Source of the DNA: a virus
Length of the DNA: 64,000 bases
Virus record (IMG/VR): IMGVR_UViG_3300017917_001616
Span: 1 to 64,000 of that record
Reading direction: 5' to 3' (one strand)
The notes under the pieces were generated by a model that saw only the letters and a program-made list of their open reading frames with translations, was not told where the DNA came from and did no database searches. Every line of letters begins with the position of its first letter. The first letter of the stretch is position 1. A program made the translations under genes and the position numbers. Positions 15,645 through 35,840 of the stretch are shown here, piece after piece.

Positions 15645-16250
15645 ATGATTAAAGTCCAAGGCAAACTTCCTAGAGACGTAGTAGTTGCTTGCAGCGGCGG
15701 CGTTGATAGTATGGCTATTGTTGATTTTCTAAAAAGAAATCATCGTATTACTCTACAGTTTGTGCATCATGGCACGGAAACTAGTGAACAAGCACACCAG
15801 TTTCTAGTGCAATATGCTGCAGATAATCAACTTAAACTATACACGTCACATATCAACACTGATCTTCCTAAAGGCGTAAGTCAAGAAGAACACTGGAGAA
15901 ACGAACGTTATAAAATTTTTAATGCTTGGCAGAAACCGGTTATTACTTGTCATCATTTAGATGATTGTGTAGAGACTTGGATTTGGTCAAGTATGCACGG
16001 CGAGGGTAAAGTTATTCCCTACCAAAATGAAAATGTAATTAGGCCTTTTAGACTAAACAAAAAACATGAGTTTATCAATTGGTGTAAACGAAAAAATGTA
16101 AGTTGGATTGAAGATAAATCAAATCTTGACACATCATATATTAGAAACTATATTCGTAACAATATTGTAGAACAACTGTTAGTTATTAATCCAGGCTTAC
16201 ATAAAGTAATCGCAAAGAAAATTGAACAAGAACACAAAGGACACATGTAA
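15645..16250 (+). CDS. tilS: tRNA(Ile)-lysidine synthetase, minimal catalytic domain
   Basis: PP-loop SGGVDS, R..RY, HHLDD.ET, IRP, WIEDKSN...RN.IR. Confidence 0.9.
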   Translation: MIKVQGKLPRDVVVACSGGVDSMAIVDFLKRNHRITLQFVHHGTETSEQAHQFLVQYAADNQLKLYTSHINTDLPKGVSQEEHWRNERYKIFNAWQKPVITCHHLDDCVETWIWSSMHGEGKVIPYQNENVIRPFRLNKKHEFINWCKRKNVSWIEDKSNLDTSYIRNYIRNNIVEQLLVINPGLHKVIAKKIEQEHKGHM

Positions 16251-19889: not shown

Positions 19890-20746
19890 ATGGGCGGTAT
19901 AGCGTCCGACTTAAGGGTAAGTGCAGTAATGCACCCAAAGCAAGGTTTCCTATAAACTTGCGCTGTAGCAATACAGTCCATCTATGCAAGCCTGAACTAG
20001 AGTTGACTCGGTTATCCGAAAGCAACTCCCGTCCGTAGAAAGGCGGTAGGCAGTAAGTTAGGAATGGTGTCCGAAAGGATAGTCGCAGAGCCAGTCGGTG
20101 AGCGATAAGAGGGTTGGCGCCCAAACACCGTTCAGCCAAACTAACGAATGCTGAAAGTTAACAGGTAGCTACAGAGTCTGAGCCCGCAAGCAAAGGCATG
20201 GTAGCATCTTGAGAGTGGAAGGGTTAGGCCCCGGATACTTGAAAAGACGTTGAGTAGTCCGCAAGACGAAAGACAGTTGGTGTGTTGTATTCTGTATCTA
20301 ACAAGATATGGAGCAACTGGGGCAGCACATCGAAGTAGGTTCGCAATATTGCATAACGGTAATGCAATCGTATTATCAAACGACAGACTGTGGGTTCGAT
20401 TCCCACTGTTGCACACAAAAGCGAAAGACTGTCCCGGTATACTACGAAAGGTGGTTAATGCCACACTCGAAAGAGAATGTGGTCTACAGATGCTCGCAAG
20501 GCGGACGTAGTTGTTCGGAAAGATAGCGTAACTTCTTAGCGGAAGTGAACTGCTCGCAAGGCAGGCGAAGGATAGAAGGACGAGTAGTAGTATGCGACGA
20601 GAGAAACGCCACTCTCCAAAAAAGGCACCACTGGAAGATACAGGATGACCGTAAAAGGCTCCTGTGGATAACGAGAGAACGTGGCTCGCAAGGCTAACGG
20701 TAATGCTCAAAGGCTTCCATCCTATGCTGTAATCTCAAGCTAGGCA
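19890..20746 (+). ncRNA. Large ornate ncRNA, GOLLD-like, with a nested tRNA-like element (20342-20413)
   Basis: About 860 nt, GC-richer, no credible ORF, many GNRA-capped hairpins (gcaa, gaaa), located among tRNAs; boundaries approximate. Confidence 0.6.
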
Positions 20747-20851
20747 AAACATTACGTTTTGATGATACACATATATACTAACAGAGGCTTAGTCCGGAGA
20801 GCGTTATGCCAAGTTTATGTGTATCTTCTAAGCGTAAAATAAATACTTTAC

Positions 20852-24090: not shown

Positions 24091-24717
24091 ATGGTTAAAA
24101 TGACTTGTTACTCGGATGTTCCTGGATGGGGAGATTTTCCGATAGTATACCGTGATTTAGTTGCGTCACTGCCTGCTAACGCTAGTATACTTGAATTAGG
24201 TGTTGGGTTTGGACGTGGAACATGGACAATGCTCGACGCAATGACGGATACCATGTCACTTTATATAATTGATAGTTTTAATGCAGTAGACACAGTAGAT
24301 TTGTGGGAAAATTATTTCGAAACAGGTAGTCCGGTAACACTAAGTCGGGAAAATATATTAGAGTATGGAAATATGACTAAAATATATAACCACTACGAAA
24401 TCTTTTTACATAATATATGTCAACACACACGTTACTCTCAAATACAAGCAATACATGCTATATCAAGCGACGAGTATATTGCTTCGAATTTTAAGAATGA
24501 TTTTGATCTTGTATTCCTAGACGGCGAGCATTCATATGAAGCTGTAAAGCAAGAACTTGAATACTTTAAAAATTCTGGCATAATTTCTGGACATGACTAC
24601 AATATTGAAACTTGGCCGGGTGTAATACAAGCGGTAACCGAATTTCTTGATAGTAACCCCGATCGGTATTTAAAAGTATACGAAGAAAATGAAGTATTTG
24701 TGATTTGCCGTCGTTAA
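24091..24717 (+). CDS. Class I SAM-dependent methyltransferase (Methyltransf_24-like)
   Basis: ILELGVGFGR, FLDGEHSYE, ISGHDY...WPGV motifs. Confidence 0.85.
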   Translation: MVKMTCYSDVPGWGDFPIVYRDLVASLPANASILELGVGFGRGTWTMLDAMTDTMSLYIIDSFNAVDTVDLWENYFETGSPVTLSRENILEYGNMTKIYNHYEIFLHNICQHTRYSQIQAIHAISSDEYIASNFKNDFDLVFLDGEHSYEAVKQELEYFKNSGIISGHDYNIETWPGVIQAVTEFLDSNPDRYLKVYEENEVFVICRR

Positions 24718-29105: not shown

Positions 29106-29510
29106 TGTCGGACGTTACTAAGTTTTTTGCAATCGCACTTAATAGTGCGCTAGCAATTGTTGTAATCGGGATGGTGGTTAACTACGATCCCATGCGGGCA
29201 GCAATCGATCATGCTGTGCTAGTTGCAATTATGAGCGAGTAATGAAGTTAGACCCCGAAGAAAGAATACTGTTAACAAAGGAGGAAGCTGAGCGTATTGA
29301 AGACATATGTAAAAATCCTCCCGAGCCGACCGACTACGTAAGACGATATATTAACGCATATAGGAAGAAAGATGAAACGAAAACGCCAAAAGGTTCCTAA
29401 GGAAAGGAACGTGTTTGTAGCTGCCGCATTGTTTCGCAAGGCAGGCGCACACACTAAAACAAACAAAGCGAAACGAAAACGTGAAAAACAAGACTTCACA
29501 GAAAACATTA

Positions 29511-29597
29511 GGACCGGTGCCCGAGAGGCCGATGGGGACAGACTTTTAATCTGTAGCAGCAATGCCAACGAAGGTTCGAATCCTTCCCGGTTCACCA
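29511..29597 (+). tRNA. tRNA-Lys(TTT) on a Tyr-like long-V-arm body
   Basis: Loop CTTTTAA in acaga/tctgt stem, long V region, CCA. Confidence 0.85.
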
Positions 29598-29908
29598 TTA
29601 CTTTGATGATACGTAAAATATGGGTTCGATTCCCGGCACTATACCTCGCAAGGGTGAAGGGCTCCTTTAAGGTAGGATTGAACGTATCTTCTAAGTAATG
29701 ATTATTTTGACGATAACAGAATAGCAGATCCTGGGTAATTAAGTTTGCTTTAGAGTGGGATCAGGGATATGTTGCGAGCCCTGCTGTTATCTTCTAAGTA
29801 ATGACATTGTTTTGATGATATATTGATACCGAAGGGCACGACGGTTTGGTTAGTAACCCTGATGCCGGGTGAACGGTTCGAATCCAACAATATATCTTCT
29901 AAGTAATG
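29596..29908 (+). repeat. Three tandem ~104-nt stem-enclosed RNA units with shared termini TTTGA(T/C)GATA...TATCTTCTAAGTAATG
   Basis: TATCTTCTAAGTAATG ends at 29700, 29803 and 29908; a related unit lies at 20752-20837. Confidence 0.8.
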
Positions 29909-29982
29909 CGCCGGTAGCTCAGAGGCAGAGCAGGGGGCTCTTAATCCCAAGGTCGAGGTTTCGAAATCCTCCCGGCACACCA
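29908..29982 (+). tRNA. tRNA-Lys(CTT)
   Basis: Loop CTCTTAA, CCA. Confidence 0.88.
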
Positions 29983-33409: not shown

Positions 33410-33931
33410 ATGAAAGAAGCACGTAAATACCTAGTATTTTTGGATGTTGATGGCGTGTTTACTTCGTCACGTGTTCATTATGGTCACAATGCTAGCTACG
33501 ATATGTGGCACAGGTTTGATCCAGTTGCAGTAGACTTTATGAATAAGATTCATGATCGGTATCCAGTTGAGTTTGTTCTAATGTCAACTTGGAAAAACTA
33601 TATCGATGTAAAAAGTCATATGATCCAGCATTGGGTTCGTGCTGCATTTGGTAATAGCGGTTTCAGGGGGCAACTTGCAACTCCGTGGAAAACAGATCCT
33701 GACGAACTTTGGATCAACAGAAAAAACTTTGACCGAGGCGACGAAGTAAAAGAGTATTTAGATGTATACGGACAGGATGTCAACGATTTCATCTTATTTG
33801 ACGACAATGCTTATAACTTCGATAAAGCACTAGGAGTTAAGCGGCTAGTAAGAACAGATCATGAAAATGGACTGTTATACAAGCATATGCTACATGCCCA
33901 GAGTATCATGGGACAATGGCATGAACGATAG
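33410..33931 (+). CDS. HAD-family phosphatase (RNA-repair-associated type)
   Basis: FLDVDGV, MSTW, RG.E, ILFDD motifs. Confidence 0.8.
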   Translation: MKEARKYLVFLDVDGVFTSSRVHYGHNASYDMWHRFDPVAVDFMNKIHDRYPVEFVLMSTWKNYIDVKSHMIQHWVRAAFGNSGFRGQLATPWKTDPDELWINRKNFDRGDEVKEYLDVYGQDVNDFILFDDNAYNFDKALGVKRLVRTDHENGLLYKHMLHAQSIMGQWHER

Positions 33932-33995
33932 GTAGCTGCAACTACCTTGGCTAGGAGACTATCTTTAACGAACTTTGCAGAGTTGTTGATAGGTA

Positions 33996-34067
33996 GACTG
34001 TTTCGTCTAACGGAGAGGACGCTGCCTAGAGGTGGCAGAGATATAGGTTCGAATCCTGTAGCAGTTT
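33996..34067 (+). pseudogene. tRNA pseudogene / tRNA-like element (Glu/Asp-type D arm, no U33, no CCA)
   Basis: Cloverleaf with loop TAGAGGT. Confidence 0.55.
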
Positions 34068-34086
34068 TGCTCTTAGCCAGAAATTA

Positions 34087-34165
34087 GTCCTTGTAACGGA
34101 AATTGGTAAACCTCTTCCGTCGAGAGCGGCAGGATTTGTGGGTTCGAGTCCCACCAAGGACACCA
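34087..34165 (+). tRNA. tRNA-Leu(GAG), short variable region
   Basis: Loop TCGAGAG, A73, CCA. Confidence 0.75.
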
Positions 34166-34228
34166 ATTAATATCTTGACATTATACCAAATGTAATTTAC
34201 AATTTAGTAGAAATATGAAAGGTATAGC

Positions 34229-34795
34229 ATGACAAAAGATATTTGGGTTATTAGTGATACGCACTTTAACCACGCAAACATTCTAAAATTTACAGATAGT
34301 AACACAGGCGAATTGATTCGTGGCGCTAAATTTCAGTCAGTGACTGAAATGGACGAATATATGGTAGACCGTTGGAACAGCACAGTAAAGCCCGGGGATA
34401 AGGTTTATCATCTAGGCGATGTTATGTTCGGAGATAAAGAGTATTTCCAAAAGCTATGGCCTAAGCTACACGGACAAAAGCGTCTTATTGTGGGAAACCA
34501 TGACGACATTAAGTATCTATCTAGTGGCGGGTTCTTTGCAAAGGTTCATATGTGGCGTATGATGACTGAGTTTGGCTTGCTGCTAACACATGTTCCTGTT
34601 CATCCTAGCAACTTGCGAGTATACGCTGTAGAAGGCGAATACAACGAGGGTGATGTAGGAACAGTTCAAAAGACGTTTCTTAATGTTCATGGACATATTC
34701 ACCAAAATCCAAGCCCAGAAGGGCCATATCGCAATATGAGCGTAGAGGCCATTGATTATACTCCTGTTAACATCGAAGAACTGAGGATTAAGTAA
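34229..34795 (+). CDS. Calcineurin-like metallophosphoesterase
   Basis: SDTH, LGD, GNHD, THVP, HGHIH motifs. Confidence 0.9.
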   Translation: MTKDIWVISDTHFNHANILKFTDSNTGELIRGAKFQSVTEMDEYMVDRWNSTVKPGDKVYHLGDVMFGDKEYFQKLWPKLHGQKRLIVGNHDDIKYLSSGGFFAKVHMWRMMTEFGLLLTHVPVHPSNLRVYAVEGEYNEGDVGTVQKTFLNVHGHIHQNPSPEGPYRNMSVEAIDYTPVNIEELRIK

Positions 34796-34953
34796 ATGCT
34801 AGAAATTATTCTGTGGTATGTGTTGCCTAATGTTGCACTGTTTGGCAGTCTTTATCTACTTGGTAAAGGCATTGAGCGAGCAACATGGTTTTTTATTGAA
34901 AACTATGACGATATTGTCTCTGGTAAACTCACTCTAAAAAAGAATCGTTAATA

Positions 34954-35190
34954 ATGCGTTGGAAATCATATCAAGGGCCCAAGTCGGGTGAGAAGCGTGT
35001 AGTAGAATGTTTTGCAATTCTTCCAACAAGACTAGATGATGGTTATACAGTATGGTTAGAAAAATACTATGCTGTAGAAACATGGGATGATGGCACAACT
35101 AGCACTGGGTTCGGTTATTGGAAAACAAATAGCACTTCGTCAGAACATCCACACAAACCTGACACTGGAAGTAATTATCGGAGAACATAA
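34954..35190 (+). CDS. Hypothetical protein
   Basis: 78 aa ORF within an operon. Confidence 0.55.
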   Translation: MRWKSYQGPKSGEKRVVECFAILPTRLDDGYTVWLEKYYAVETWDDGTTSTGFGYWKTNSTSSEHPHKPDTGSNYRRT

Positions 35191-35840
35191 TGACACTAAC
35201 AAGACTAATCGGCGACATTCACGGAATGGTAAATGATTATAAGGCATACTCCATTGGAGATTTCGCCGGGCCTACTATCCAAATAGGAGACTTTGGCATT
35301 GGCTTTGGTCAGAGCGATTACTGGCATGAAAGCGTTAATGAGTTTCACACTATTGGTGGGCATCGTTTTATTCGTGGCAATCACGATAATCCTGCAACTT
35401 GTAAGACAATGTCTGGATATATCCCAGATGGTCTAGTAGAAAACGATGTGATGTTTATCGGCGGCGCATGGAGTATCGATAACCCAAATGCTCCTCCGGG
35501 GTGGTATCGCAGAACTGCTAATTATGACTGGTGGGACGATGAAGAATGTTCGGATAAACAATTTCGACATTTCCTTGAAATTTATGCTACTGTAAAGCCT
35601 CGAGTTATGATTACACATGACTGTCCTGCTAAAGTTTCTTACCCTATGTTTTGGGGAAGCGGCTTTATCAAAGGACCGGTGTATCCTAACCGCACTAGCG
35701 CATGGTTTGATAAGTTTATCGATGTTCACGAGCCTGAAGAATGGTATTTTGGACATTGGCACAAAACCATGGCACACAAACACGGTCGCACAATGTTTCA
35801 GTGTATTGGCGAACTAGATTATATGGATGTAGAGCTATGA
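35190..35840 (+). CDS. Metallophosphoesterase
   Basis: GDIHG, GDFG, GNHD, THDCP, FGHWH motifs. Confidence 0.9.
   Translation: MTLTRLIGDIHGMVNDYKAYSIGDFAGPTIQIGDFGIGFGQSDYWHESVNEFHTIGGHRFIRGNHDNPATCKTMSGYIPDGLVENDVMFIGGAWSIDNPNAPPGWYRRTANYDWWDDEECSDKQFRHFLEIYATVKPRVMITHDCPAKVSYPMFWGSGFIKGPVYPNRTSAWFDKFIDVHEPEEWYFGHWHKTMAHKHGRTMFQCIGELDYMDVEL

What the first reader, a model, noticed from the sequence alone, without database searches (positions are those of the whole stretch)
29596..29908. Tandem array of three ~104-nt RNA cassettes with a conserved closing stem and unrelated cargo
Seen: each unit opens with TTTGA(T/C)GATA and closes with TATCTTCTAAGTAATG, forming a stem with two conserved non-canonical pairs (mostly U-U). 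The inner stem extensions differ but stay complementary (acgt/acgt, acag/ctgt, atattg/caatat). The cargos differ, and two contain GGTTCGA T-loops. A fourth unit lies at 20752-20837. Inference: a standard processing handle (RNase III or a phage nuclease) that releases diverse small RNAs, such as tRNA decoys or antitoxin/anti-defence RNAs.
Basis: partly seen in the sequence, partly recalled or inferred. Interest (0 to 1): 0.7.

Follow-up and report, generated by a model that had tools for sequence, protein, structure and literature searches.

The report
Clamp-stem RNA cassettes between phage tRNAs
A giant uncultured phage carries, wedged exactly between its tRNA genes, small RNA units that all share one near-invariant 22-base-pair closing stem but enclose unrelated, freely swapped structured inserts; no catalogue or paper I could search describes this RNA family, and its job is unknown.

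Summary
The window is a fragment of a huge uncultured phage with 41 tRNA genes and a GOLLD RNA. It holds four units on the tRNA strand (20751-20838, 29595-29701, 29699-29804, 29804-29909).

Each unit is closed by UUUGAYGAUA paired with UAUCUUCUAA, with two pyrimidine-pyrimidine mismatches. Covarying inner and outer helices extend this to about 22 positions.

The outer helix starts on C75-A76 of the upstream tRNA and ends on U(-1)/G(+1) of the next tRNA. No single-stranded linker is left.

The same handle occurs in more than 60 viral and metagenomic contigs, including three complete genomes of 201-519 kb. It encloses at least 34 unrelated cargo classes.

Of 37 tRNA-abutting units, 32 start exactly 4 nt after tRNA-Lys(UUU). 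In 5 of 6 GOLLD-bearing contigs a unit follows GOLLD directly. Cargos are swapped between phages whose flanking tRNAs are 99-100% identical. About a third carry T-loop hairpins.

There is no Rfam family and no tRNA call. The complete genomes encode no Ro60, RNase III or RtcB.

Best reading: a new family of tRNA-linked phage small RNAs with a handle and exchangeable cargo. A double-strand-specific nuclease probably releases them (inferred). Cargo function is unknown.

The parts
29595..29701 (+). Unit 1. The outer helix starts on C75-A76 of tRNA-Lys(UUU). Core 5' strand 29602-29611, core 3' strand 29685-29694. The cargo has a T-loop hairpin (GGGUUCGAUUCCC) near its 5' side and a CUCGCAAGG hairpin.
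   Evidence: (58.6 bits)
29699..29804 (+). Unit 2 (UUUGACGAUA variant, C-U inner mismatch). Cargo class 5 is shared with the 519-kb phage G003 and contig L182. Its hairpin CAGGG/CCCUG covaries to CAAGG/CCUUG.
   Evidence: (48.2 bits)
29804..29909 (+). Unit 3. Cargo class 6 is shared with L064/L133, where the inner stem is different but still complementary. GGUUCGAAUCC abuts the 3' strand of the stem. The last pairs of the outer helix use U(-1)/G(+1) of tRNA-Lys(CUU).
   Evidence: (64 bits)
20751..20838 (+). Unit 4 has a short 54-nt cargo. It lies 9 nt after the GOLLD RNA and 13 nt before tRNA-Ala. Its outer helix is UUACGU/GCGUAA.
   Evidence: z = -4.2; 56 bits
29511..29597 (+). tRNA-Lys(UUU). 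Its CCA end is the first part of the outer helix of unit 1. It is the conserved upstream neighbour of the family.
   Evidence: 32 of 37 abutting units
29908..29982 (+). tRNA-Lys(CUU). It is the conserved downstream neighbour. Its 5' end (the RNase P site) coincides with the 3' end of the outer helix of unit 3.
   Evidence: 15 of 31
20277..20741 (+). GOLLD RNA, the upstream neighbour of unit 4. This arrangement recurs in 5 of 6 GOLLD-bearing contigs of the set.

Best explanation
Shown. These are genes for a previously uncatalogued family of phage small RNAs of about 85-125 nt. They are co-oriented with the tRNA array and butt-joined to it. Each RNA is a long irregular helix, the 'handle', with a median of 22 positions: an outer 5-6 bp, then the near-invariant 10-position core UUUGAYGAUA/UAUCUUCUAA with two Y-Y mismatches, then an inner 5-8 bp. 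The handle clamps a variable structured cargo of 50-90 nt. The handle is selected as an RNA helix. The cargo is an exchangeable module, replaced between phages whose flanks are nearly identical. The preferred slot is tRNA-Lys(UUU) -> cassette(s) -> tRNA-Lys(CUU) or tRNA-Ile(GAU). A second slot lies directly 3' of GOLLD RNA.

Inferred.
1. The units are transcribed as part of the tRNA polycistron.
2. RNase P cleavage of the downstream tRNA makes the 3' end of the last unit.
3. No single-stranded linker exists between the CCA of the upstream tRNA, successive units and the next tRNA, and a blunt 22-bp helix would block 3' exonucleases. Maturation of tRNA-Lys(UUU) and separation of units therefore require a cut inside the helix by a double-strand-specific endonuclease. 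Host RNase III is the obvious candidate, and the mismatches may position the cut.
4. This would release each cargo on a stub of stem. The cargos would then act in trans. About a third present a tRNA 'elbow' (a T-loop hairpin stacked on the stem) without any aminoacylatable end, so they could bind tRNA-recognising factors without entering translation.
5. The hypervariability at a fixed slot points to a host-phage conflict role, but this is not demonstrated.
For: - Stem: 19 pairs, 96.8% of cells paired, 12 pairs with double changes, 0 of 500 shuffles as good; slid controls pair 34-49%.
- Core covariation in diverged copies: G4-C7' becomes A-U (L012b, L096c, L161b) or U-A (L160c); U9-A2' becomes C-G (L135b); the outer U-U becomes C-C (L229).
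- Inner/outer helices hold 34 G-U against 7 A-C pairs. Orientation relative to the flanking tRNAs is fixed. Both point to RNA of the tRNA strand.
- Distribution: 22 viral contigs confirmed with covariance model R1, including complete genomes of 342, 519 and 201 kb; 45 metagenome contigs.
- Cargo: 56 non-redundant units fall into at least 34 cargo classes. Covariation inside cargos occurs in classes 0, 1, 2, 5 and 9.
- Context: 32 of 37 abutting units lie 4 nt after tRNA-Lys(UUU); downstream is tRNA-Lys(CUU) 15 times and tRNA-Ile 11 times. Units sit 7-9 nt after GOLLD in 5 of 6 contigs.
- Cassette swap: flanks 99/99% identical with unrelated cargo (u007 vs u008); upstream tRNA 100% identical with unrelated cargo (u000 vs u013); cargo 95% identical with flanks only 86/71% (u008 vs u011).
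- The handle core is identical in phages whose proteins are 29-93% identical.
- T-loop hairpins: 10 of 34 classes against 0.27 in shuffles; six of them abut the 3' strand of the stem as in tRNA.
- Stem length has a median of 22 positions. From my own knowledge, that is about the minimal RNase III substrate.
- No terminator-like site lies inside the arrays.
Against: - Transcription, processing and release are all inferred.
- Bacterial RNase III has little sequence specificity (my knowledge). It does not explain why 20 nt are invariant across diverged phages. A sequence-specific partner, or homogenisation by recombination, would explain that better.
- No phage RNase III gene is present in 5 contigs, including 3 complete genomes.
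- Two thirds of cargos have no T-loop, and none shows an anticodon-loop copy, so there is no common cargo function.
- The sets were collected with patterns that fix the core. Core invariance is therefore partly ascertainment. Only about 10 diverged copies were found independently.
Confidence: 0.5

Rival explanations
1. The handle is a sequence-specific protein-binding site, so the units are the RNA subunits of an RNP. That would be Y-RNA-like logic: a constant stem binds one protein, and a variable module recruits or mimics substrates. The partner could be a Ro60-like DUF2828/DUF7788 ring protein, a host Ro60, or an unidentified phage protein.
For: - Both strands of a 10-position helix with two conserved Y-Y mismatches are invariant in phages with 29-93% protein identity. 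That is typical of protein operators rather than of RNase III sites.
- The architecture (long 5'/3' stem plus a tRNA-like module) parallels YrlA (PMC4201824).
- A DUF2828+DUF7788 ORF of 472-476 aa lies about 2 kb downstream of cassettes, in the same orientation, in 3 contigs.
- Earlier notes of this scan report other handle RNAs next to such proteins.
Against: - TROVE is found in 0 of 10 contigs.
- DUF2828 and DUF7788 are found in only 3 of 22 contigs and in none of the 3 complete genomes.
- The handle lacks the GNCGAAN0-1G motif of bacterial Y RNAs, and there is no RF02553 hit on any unit.
- No gene is consistently adjacent.
Confidence: 0.25
2. The handle is a passive clamp and recombination module. 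It only insulates neighbouring RNAs from misfolding and caps them against exonucleases. Its sequence is kept uniform because cassettes are continually exchanged by homologous recombination at the handles (concerted evolution). The units may stay attached to the upstream RNA, and many cargos may be relics with no trans function.
For: - Clear cassette exchange at the handle boundaries.
- Units follow two unrelated RNAs (tRNA and GOLLD) at a fixed short distance.
- The cargos share no feature common to all.
- A RecA-like recombinase is encoded in the window.
Against: - Cargo classes are conserved (88-98% identity) across backgrounds whose tRNAs are 69-86% identical, and they show compensatory changes. 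This indicates selection on the cargos.
- Y-Y mismatches are retained, even by a U-U to C-C double change. A mere clamp should drift to full pairing.
- A unit left on tRNA-Lys would block its CCA end.
Confidence: 0.17
3. The units are a DNA-level element: a MITE, inverted recombination sites, or a CRISPR-like array whose 31-nt 'repeat' is the junction of two handles.
For: The ends are imperfect inverted repeats. In tandem arrays the 3' half of one unit and the 5' half of the next could form an alternative repeat hairpin.
Against: - Most units are solitary between two tRNAs.
- Interiors are unrelated, unlike MITE copies.
- Unit-specific inner and outer helices covary across the cargo.
- The G-U over A-C excess and the fixed strand relative to the tRNAs argue for RNA.
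- The would-be spacers of 72 nt are structured and conserved.
Confidence: 0.04
4. The units encode small peptides: the ATG inside UUUGAUGAUA as start and the TAA inside UCUAAGUAAUG as stop.
For: Unit 1 reads as a 30-codon open frame from 29606 to the TAA at 29696-29698 (read directly from the sequence).
Against: The ATG is ACG in unit 2 and in many homologues. Cargo lengths are not in a common frame (54, 72, 72 and 73 nt). Substitutions are compensatory for pairing, not synonymous.
Confidence: 0.01

Closest known systems
Bacterial and phage Y RNAs of the YrlA type with Ro60/Rsr (Rfam RF02553; Chen et al. 2014, PMC4201824)
   Same: A small RNA whose 5' and 3' ends form a long conserved stem carrying a variable module. 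That module often mimics tRNA (T-arm stacked on an acceptor-like helix). Such RNAs occur in phages and can be several per locus.
   Different: The handle sequence is different, with no GNCGAAN0-1G motif. No RF02553 match falls on any unit. There is no Ro60/TROVE gene in 10 contigs, including 3 complete genomes. These units are butt-joined to tRNAs rather than placed next to rsr. Their cargos are far more diverse, and most are not tRNA-like.
Stable non-tRNA small RNAs of phage tRNA clusters: T4 RNAC and RNAD (species 1 and 2), roles unknown (PMC3014915); T5 stable RNAs
   Same: Non-coding RNAs co-transcribed with phage tRNAs and released by tRNA-processing enzymes. Their function is unknown after decades.
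   Different: No sequence relation was found: the handle is absent from 50,697 cultured-phage records, T4 and T5 included. No conserved handle with swappable cargo is described for them.
RNase III processing stems of bacterial rRNA operons and T7 early mRNAs (my knowledge)
   Same: The 5' and 3' flanks pair into a helix of about 20 bp, with internal mismatches, that encloses the product. The helix is cut by a double-strand-specific nuclease within a polycistronic transcript that also holds tRNAs.
   Different: Cleavage here is only inferred. The cargo is 50-90 nt rather than an rRNA. The stem sequence is conserved far beyond what RNase III is known to need.
tRNA-linked viral small RNAs: murid gammaherpesvirus 68 TMERs, in which a tRNA-like element is followed by hairpins freed by tRNase Z (my knowledge)
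   Same: A hairpin RNA abuts the 3' end of a tRNA-shaped element, so tRNA-processing enzymes define its end.
   Different: TMERs are made in a eukaryotic Pol III context and yield miRNAs. Here real decoding tRNAs with encoded CCA lie on both sides.

Membership tests
tRNA (Rfam RF00005 / ARAGORN) | Cloverleaf with a 7-bp acceptor stem, an anticodon loop, and a free 3' end after the discriminator | tested here: not met
   There is no ARAGORN call and no RF00005 hit at E<=10 over the window units. None at E<=0.5 falls over units in 12 other loci. Class 1 cargos are cloverleaf-shaped but have an 8-nt 'anticodon' loop and a closed 22-position stem.
YrlA / Y RNA | Match to RF02553; GNCGAAN0-1G Rsr-binding motif in the 5' strand of the stem | tested here: not met
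   The only sub-threshold RF02553 hits (23-31 bits against a cutoff of 69) lie on ordinary tRNA pairs, never on a unit. The motif is absent from the handle.
YrlA / Y RNA | Encoded next to a Ro60/Rsr (TROVE) gene | tested here: not met
   PF05731 is found in 0 of 10 contigs; the control found it in D. radiodurans and B. thetaiotaomicron. The distant DUF2828/DUF7788 protein is present in 3 of 22 contigs and 0 of 3 complete genomes.
YrlA / Y RNA | Long stem formed by the 5' and 3' ends plus a tRNA-like module with a T-arm | tested here: inconclusive
   The stem is always present. A T-loop hairpin is present in 10 of 34 cargo classes only.
RNase III processing stem | Helix of about 20 bp or more formed by the flanks of the product | tested here: met
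   Median 22 positions, range 15-29; covariation.
RNase III processing stem | Staggered cleavage in the helix that depends on rnc | not testable with these tools
   No reads were available. No phage rnc gene was found.
CRISPR array | Direct repeats of 28-37 nt, unstructured spacers of about 30-40 nt, cas genes or a leader | tested here: not met
   Most units are solitary between tRNAs. The 'spacers' are 50-90 nt, structured and conserved. Helices pair across the cargo. cas genes were not searched for.
MITE | Copies share their interior as well as their terminal inverted repeats; target-site duplication | tested here: not met
   Interiors fall into at least 34 unrelated classes. Insertion is always at an RNA gene boundary.
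Any Rfam 15 family | Covariance-model match | tested here: not met
   The best hit over the array is mir-4524 at 13.5 bits, E = 6.

The most novel reading that the evidence does not exclude
The slot behind tRNA-Lys(UUU) is an RNA counterpart of a phage anti-defence 'accessory' locus. It would be a hypervariable array of exchangeable small structured RNAs, each mounted on one standard handle. The handle would serve three purposes: as a processing signal, as a protective clamp, and as the homology for cassette shuffling between phages. The cargos (tRNA-elbow mimics and other folds) would each neutralise a different host factor, for example tRNA-targeting nucleases or other RNA-sensing defences.
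Probability: 0.25. Interest if true: 0.9.

Novelty: new variant of a known kind. Interest (0 to 1): 0.72.

Why it matters
Phage tRNA arrays are now seen as weapons against tRNA-cleaving host defences (PMC10264068, PMC11555353). The non-tRNA RNAs embedded in them have been unexplained since T4 RNAC and RNAD (PMC3014915).

This family gives a sharply defined and widespread example, with a testable anatomy:
- an invariant 22-position handle that physically joins the CCA end of one tRNA to the RNase P site of the next;
- a fixed genomic slot;
- cargos that are swapped like cassettes yet individually conserved.

It would allow direct tests of how tRNAs are matured when no single-stranded spacer exists. 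It would also allow tests of whether huge phages use libraries of small structured RNAs in conflicts with their hosts. The tight link to GOLLD RNA gives a second handle on that still function-less giant RNA.

Tried and rejected
- K-turn or C/D-box reading of UGAUGA: rejected. The 3' strand has no GA, so no tandem sheared pairs can form (read from the sequence).
- Hammerhead-like CUGAUGA: rejected. There is no conserved GAAA or three-way junction, and no Rfam ribozyme hit.
- UAA/GAN motif: the strands do not face each other that way.
- Permuted or split tRNA for unit 1: blastn-short of the cargos against the window finds only T-arm 11-14-mers.
- Anticodon-loop decoys: no cargo has a tRNA-Lys-like anticodon loop.
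- Coding: rejected (see rivals).
- Ro60 partner: TROVE absent. DUF2828/DUF7788 is present in only 3 of 22 contigs. The window's 399-aa ORF downstream of the array is unrelated to it.
- Phage RNase III and RtcB: absent.
- Neighbouring ORFs in Pfam and PHROGs: nothing RNA-binding stands out.
- Conserved neighbour gene by tblastn: none is universal.
- Cultured phages: no copy in INPHARED, in a search limited to near-exact 18-20-mers.
- Bacterial genomes: one 2-kb contig of a Flavobacteriaceae MAG only.
- Literature: three full-text searches found no description.
- ArfA-like idea for the stop-less ORF at 29372: no Pfam support.

Full report
**What the window is.** ARAGORN finds 41 tRNA genes, all on the + strand between 14.6 and 34.2 kb. 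Rfam adds a full-length GOLLD RNA at 20277-20741 (195 bits). The record is a 74,982-bp IMG/VR contig rated 19% complete, so it is a fragment of a very large phage. It encodes a T4-type terminase, a tail sheath, a RecA-like protein, ribonucleotide reductase, a PP-loop enzyme, methyltransferases, an RNA-repair-type HAD domain and two metallophosphoesterases.

**The observation.**
- Four + strand units open with TTTGAYGATA and close with TATCTTCTAAG.
- The paired pattern occurs four times forward and never in the reversed control.
- The core pairs as U1-A10', U2-A9', U3·U8', G4-C7', A5-U6', Y6·U5', G7-C4', A8-U3', U9-A2', A10-U1'.
- Unit-specific inner helices extend the core inward.
- Every MFE fold recovers the whole stem.
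- In unit 1 the outer helix begins on C75-A76 of tRNA-Lys(UUU). In unit 3 it ends on U(-1)/G(+1) of tRNA-Lys(CUU). Units are separated by 0-1 nt.

**It is a family.**
- Pattern scans found the handle in many viral contigs, in 45 metagenome contigs and in one 2-kb contig of a MAG.
- It was not found in 50,697 cultured-phage records.
- On 28 non-identical units the 19-pair stem has 96.8% of cells paired, 12 pairs with changes on both sides, and 0 of 500 shuffles as good. Slid controls fall to 34-49% paired.
- Covariance model R1 scored units in all 22 contigs tested. These include complete or near-complete genomes of 519, 342 and 201 kb. It also found diverged copies not selected by the pattern.

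**Variation in diverged copies.** These copies change the core in compensatory fashion.
- G4-C7' becomes A-U, U-A or G·U.
- U9-A2' becomes C-G.
- The inner Y·U mismatch is kept in 9 of about 10 diverged copies.
- The outer mismatch is kept in about 6 of 10, and in L229 it is changed on both strands to C·C.
- In the variable helices G-U outnumbers A-C by 34 to 7. This count is somewhat favoured by my filter.
- The 5' half always follows the tRNA on the tRNA strand. The selected object is therefore an RNA helix of that strand.

**Ascertainment caveat.** Core invariance among pattern-selected units is partly ascertainment. It is still notable that the core is identical in phages whose neighbouring proteins are 29-93% identical to the window's.

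**Context.**
- Of 56 non-redundant units, 37 have a co-oriented tRNA ending within 8 nt upstream.
- In 32 of those 37 the tRNA is tRNA-Lys(UUU), at exactly 4 nt.
- Downstream, 31 have a tRNA within 12 nt: tRNA-Lys(CUU) 15 times and tRNA-Ile(GAU) 11 times (also visible).
- The other recurrent position is 7-9 nt after GOLLD RNA. This holds in 5 of the 6 contigs of the set that have GOLLD. In the sixth, GOLLD ends in a terminator.
- No terminator-like site lies within the arrays.

**Cargo.**
- The 56 units fall into at least 34 classes with no detectable similarity to each other.
- Classes recur in different contigs with little change and with compensatory substitutions (classes 0, 1, 2, 5 and 9). 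The window's unit 2 (class 5) and unit 3 (class 6) are examples. No homologue was found for the cargos of units 1 and 4.
- Cargos are exchanged independently of their surroundings. L138 and L139 have flanking tRNAs that are 99% and 99% identical but unrelated cargos. u000 and u013 share a 100% identical tRNA-Lys(UUU) but not the cargo. Conversely, class 0 cargos are 88-95% identical in contigs whose flanking tRNAs are only 69-87% identical.
- T-loop hairpins (stem of at least 4 bp, loop U[U/G]N[R]A N Y) occur in 10 of 34 classes, against 0.27 (maximum 3) in dinucleotide shuffles. In six of them the hairpin abuts the 3' strand of the closing stem, as the T-arm abuts the acceptor stem in tRNA.
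- Class 1 is a whole cloverleaf look-alike.
- No cargo copies an anticodon loop. Similarity to the window's tRNAs is confined to T-arm 11-14-mers.
- Neither Rfam nor ARAGORN recognises any unit.

**Mechanism.** What follows is inference. The precursor leaves no unpaired nucleotides except A73-C74 between the upstream acceptor stem and the handle, and none between units or before the next tRNA.
- RNase P can free the downstream tRNA and so create the 3' end of the last unit.
- The product would then be tRNA-Lys(UUU) fused to one or more blunt helices of about 22 positions. From established knowledge, such helices stall the 3' exonucleases that normally trim tRNA trailers. RNase E also needs single-stranded RNA.
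- A cut inside the helix by a double-strand-specific enzyme is therefore the most economical way to mature tRNA-Lys and to separate units. The stem has the size of a minimal RNase III substrate, and its mismatches could position the cut.
- The enzyme would have to be the host's: three complete genomes encode no RNase III, RtcB or Ro60.

**The main rival.** The invariance of 20 nucleotides, and the retention of Y·Y mismatches even through a double change, is more than RNase III is known to require. That keeps a sequence-specific binding protein in play.
- A Ro60-like DUF2828/DUF7788 protein lies about 2 kb from cassettes in three contigs.
- It is absent from the complete genomes, so it cannot be the general partner.
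- Homogenisation by recombination at the handles probably also contributes to the uniformity.

**Comparison with known systems.** The units work most like Y RNAs of the YrlA type in architecture (PMC4201824). In biogenesis logic they resemble RNase III processing stems and tRNA-linked viral small RNAs. In genomic setting they resemble T4 RNAC and RNAD, whose roles are still unknown (PMC3014915). They fail the membership tests for tRNA, YrlA, CRISPR, MITE and every Rfam family.

**Novelty.** Three full-text searches found no description. From that description the scan has probably met this family before. I could not compare sequences. Other notes prompted the DUF2828 test, which came out largely negative here.

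**Verdict.** This is a real, widespread, uncatalogued RNA family with an unusual cassette-exchange behaviour at a fixed slot next to tRNA-Lys(UUU) and next to GOLLD RNA.

Noticed in passing
window 29372-29510 (+): An ATG-started, very basic reading frame (MKRKRQKVPKERNVFVAAALFRKAGAHTKTNKAKRKREKQDF...) has no stop codon before it runs into tRNA-Lys(UUU). RNase P cleavage would leave a non-stop mRNA. There is no ArfA or other Pfam support. A weak terminator-like hairpin lies at 29393-29410.
   Followed up: partly
window 29511-29597; also L229 (382-kb contig): The tRNA with anticodon UUU is 87 nt long and has a long variable arm and a Leu/Ser-like D-arm (class II shape), which is unusual for tRNA-Lys. 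Related phages have a normal 77-78 nt tRNA-Lys(UUU) at the same place.
   Followed up: no
window 33410-35840 (+): An HAD domain of 'Swiss Army Knife' RNA-repair proteins plus two metallophosphoesterases sit at the end of the tRNA array. Homologues recur near cassettes in 4-7 related loci.
   Followed up: partly
L208:982-2412 (+), L209:859-2289 (-), L210:868-2286 (-): Ro60-like DUF2828+DUF7788 proteins (472-476 aa) lie about 2 kb downstream of cassettes in three related contigs. In one they sit next to a Methyltransf_24 gene like the window's 24091-24717.
   Followed up: yes
L160 3520-3594 (+); L162 4738-4812 (-): tRNAs with anticodon CUA (called 'Pyl' by ARAGORN) sit in the arrays of the 519-kb and 342-kb relatives. 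They are possible amber suppressors and may point to TAG recoding.
   Followed up: no
window 29641-29649 and 20492-20500, 20553-20561, 20686-20694: The hairpin CUCGCAAGG in the cargo of unit 1 occurs three more times inside the GOLLD RNA of the same phage. It may be a shared structural module.
   Followed up: no
L150 1910-2113 (-): A sub-threshold manA RNA match (43.9 bits against a cutoff of 55.2) lies between a cassette and the tRNAs in a related contig.
   Followed up: no
window 15645-16250 (+): A PP-loop ATPase (TilS/TtcA-like tRNA-modification family, E = 3e-31) sits inside the tRNA array.
   Followed up: no
L218 621-716 (+): The only copy in 185,579 species genomes lies on a 2-kb contig binned into a Flavobacteriaceae MAG. 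It is a weak host hint or a binning artefact.
   Followed up: no
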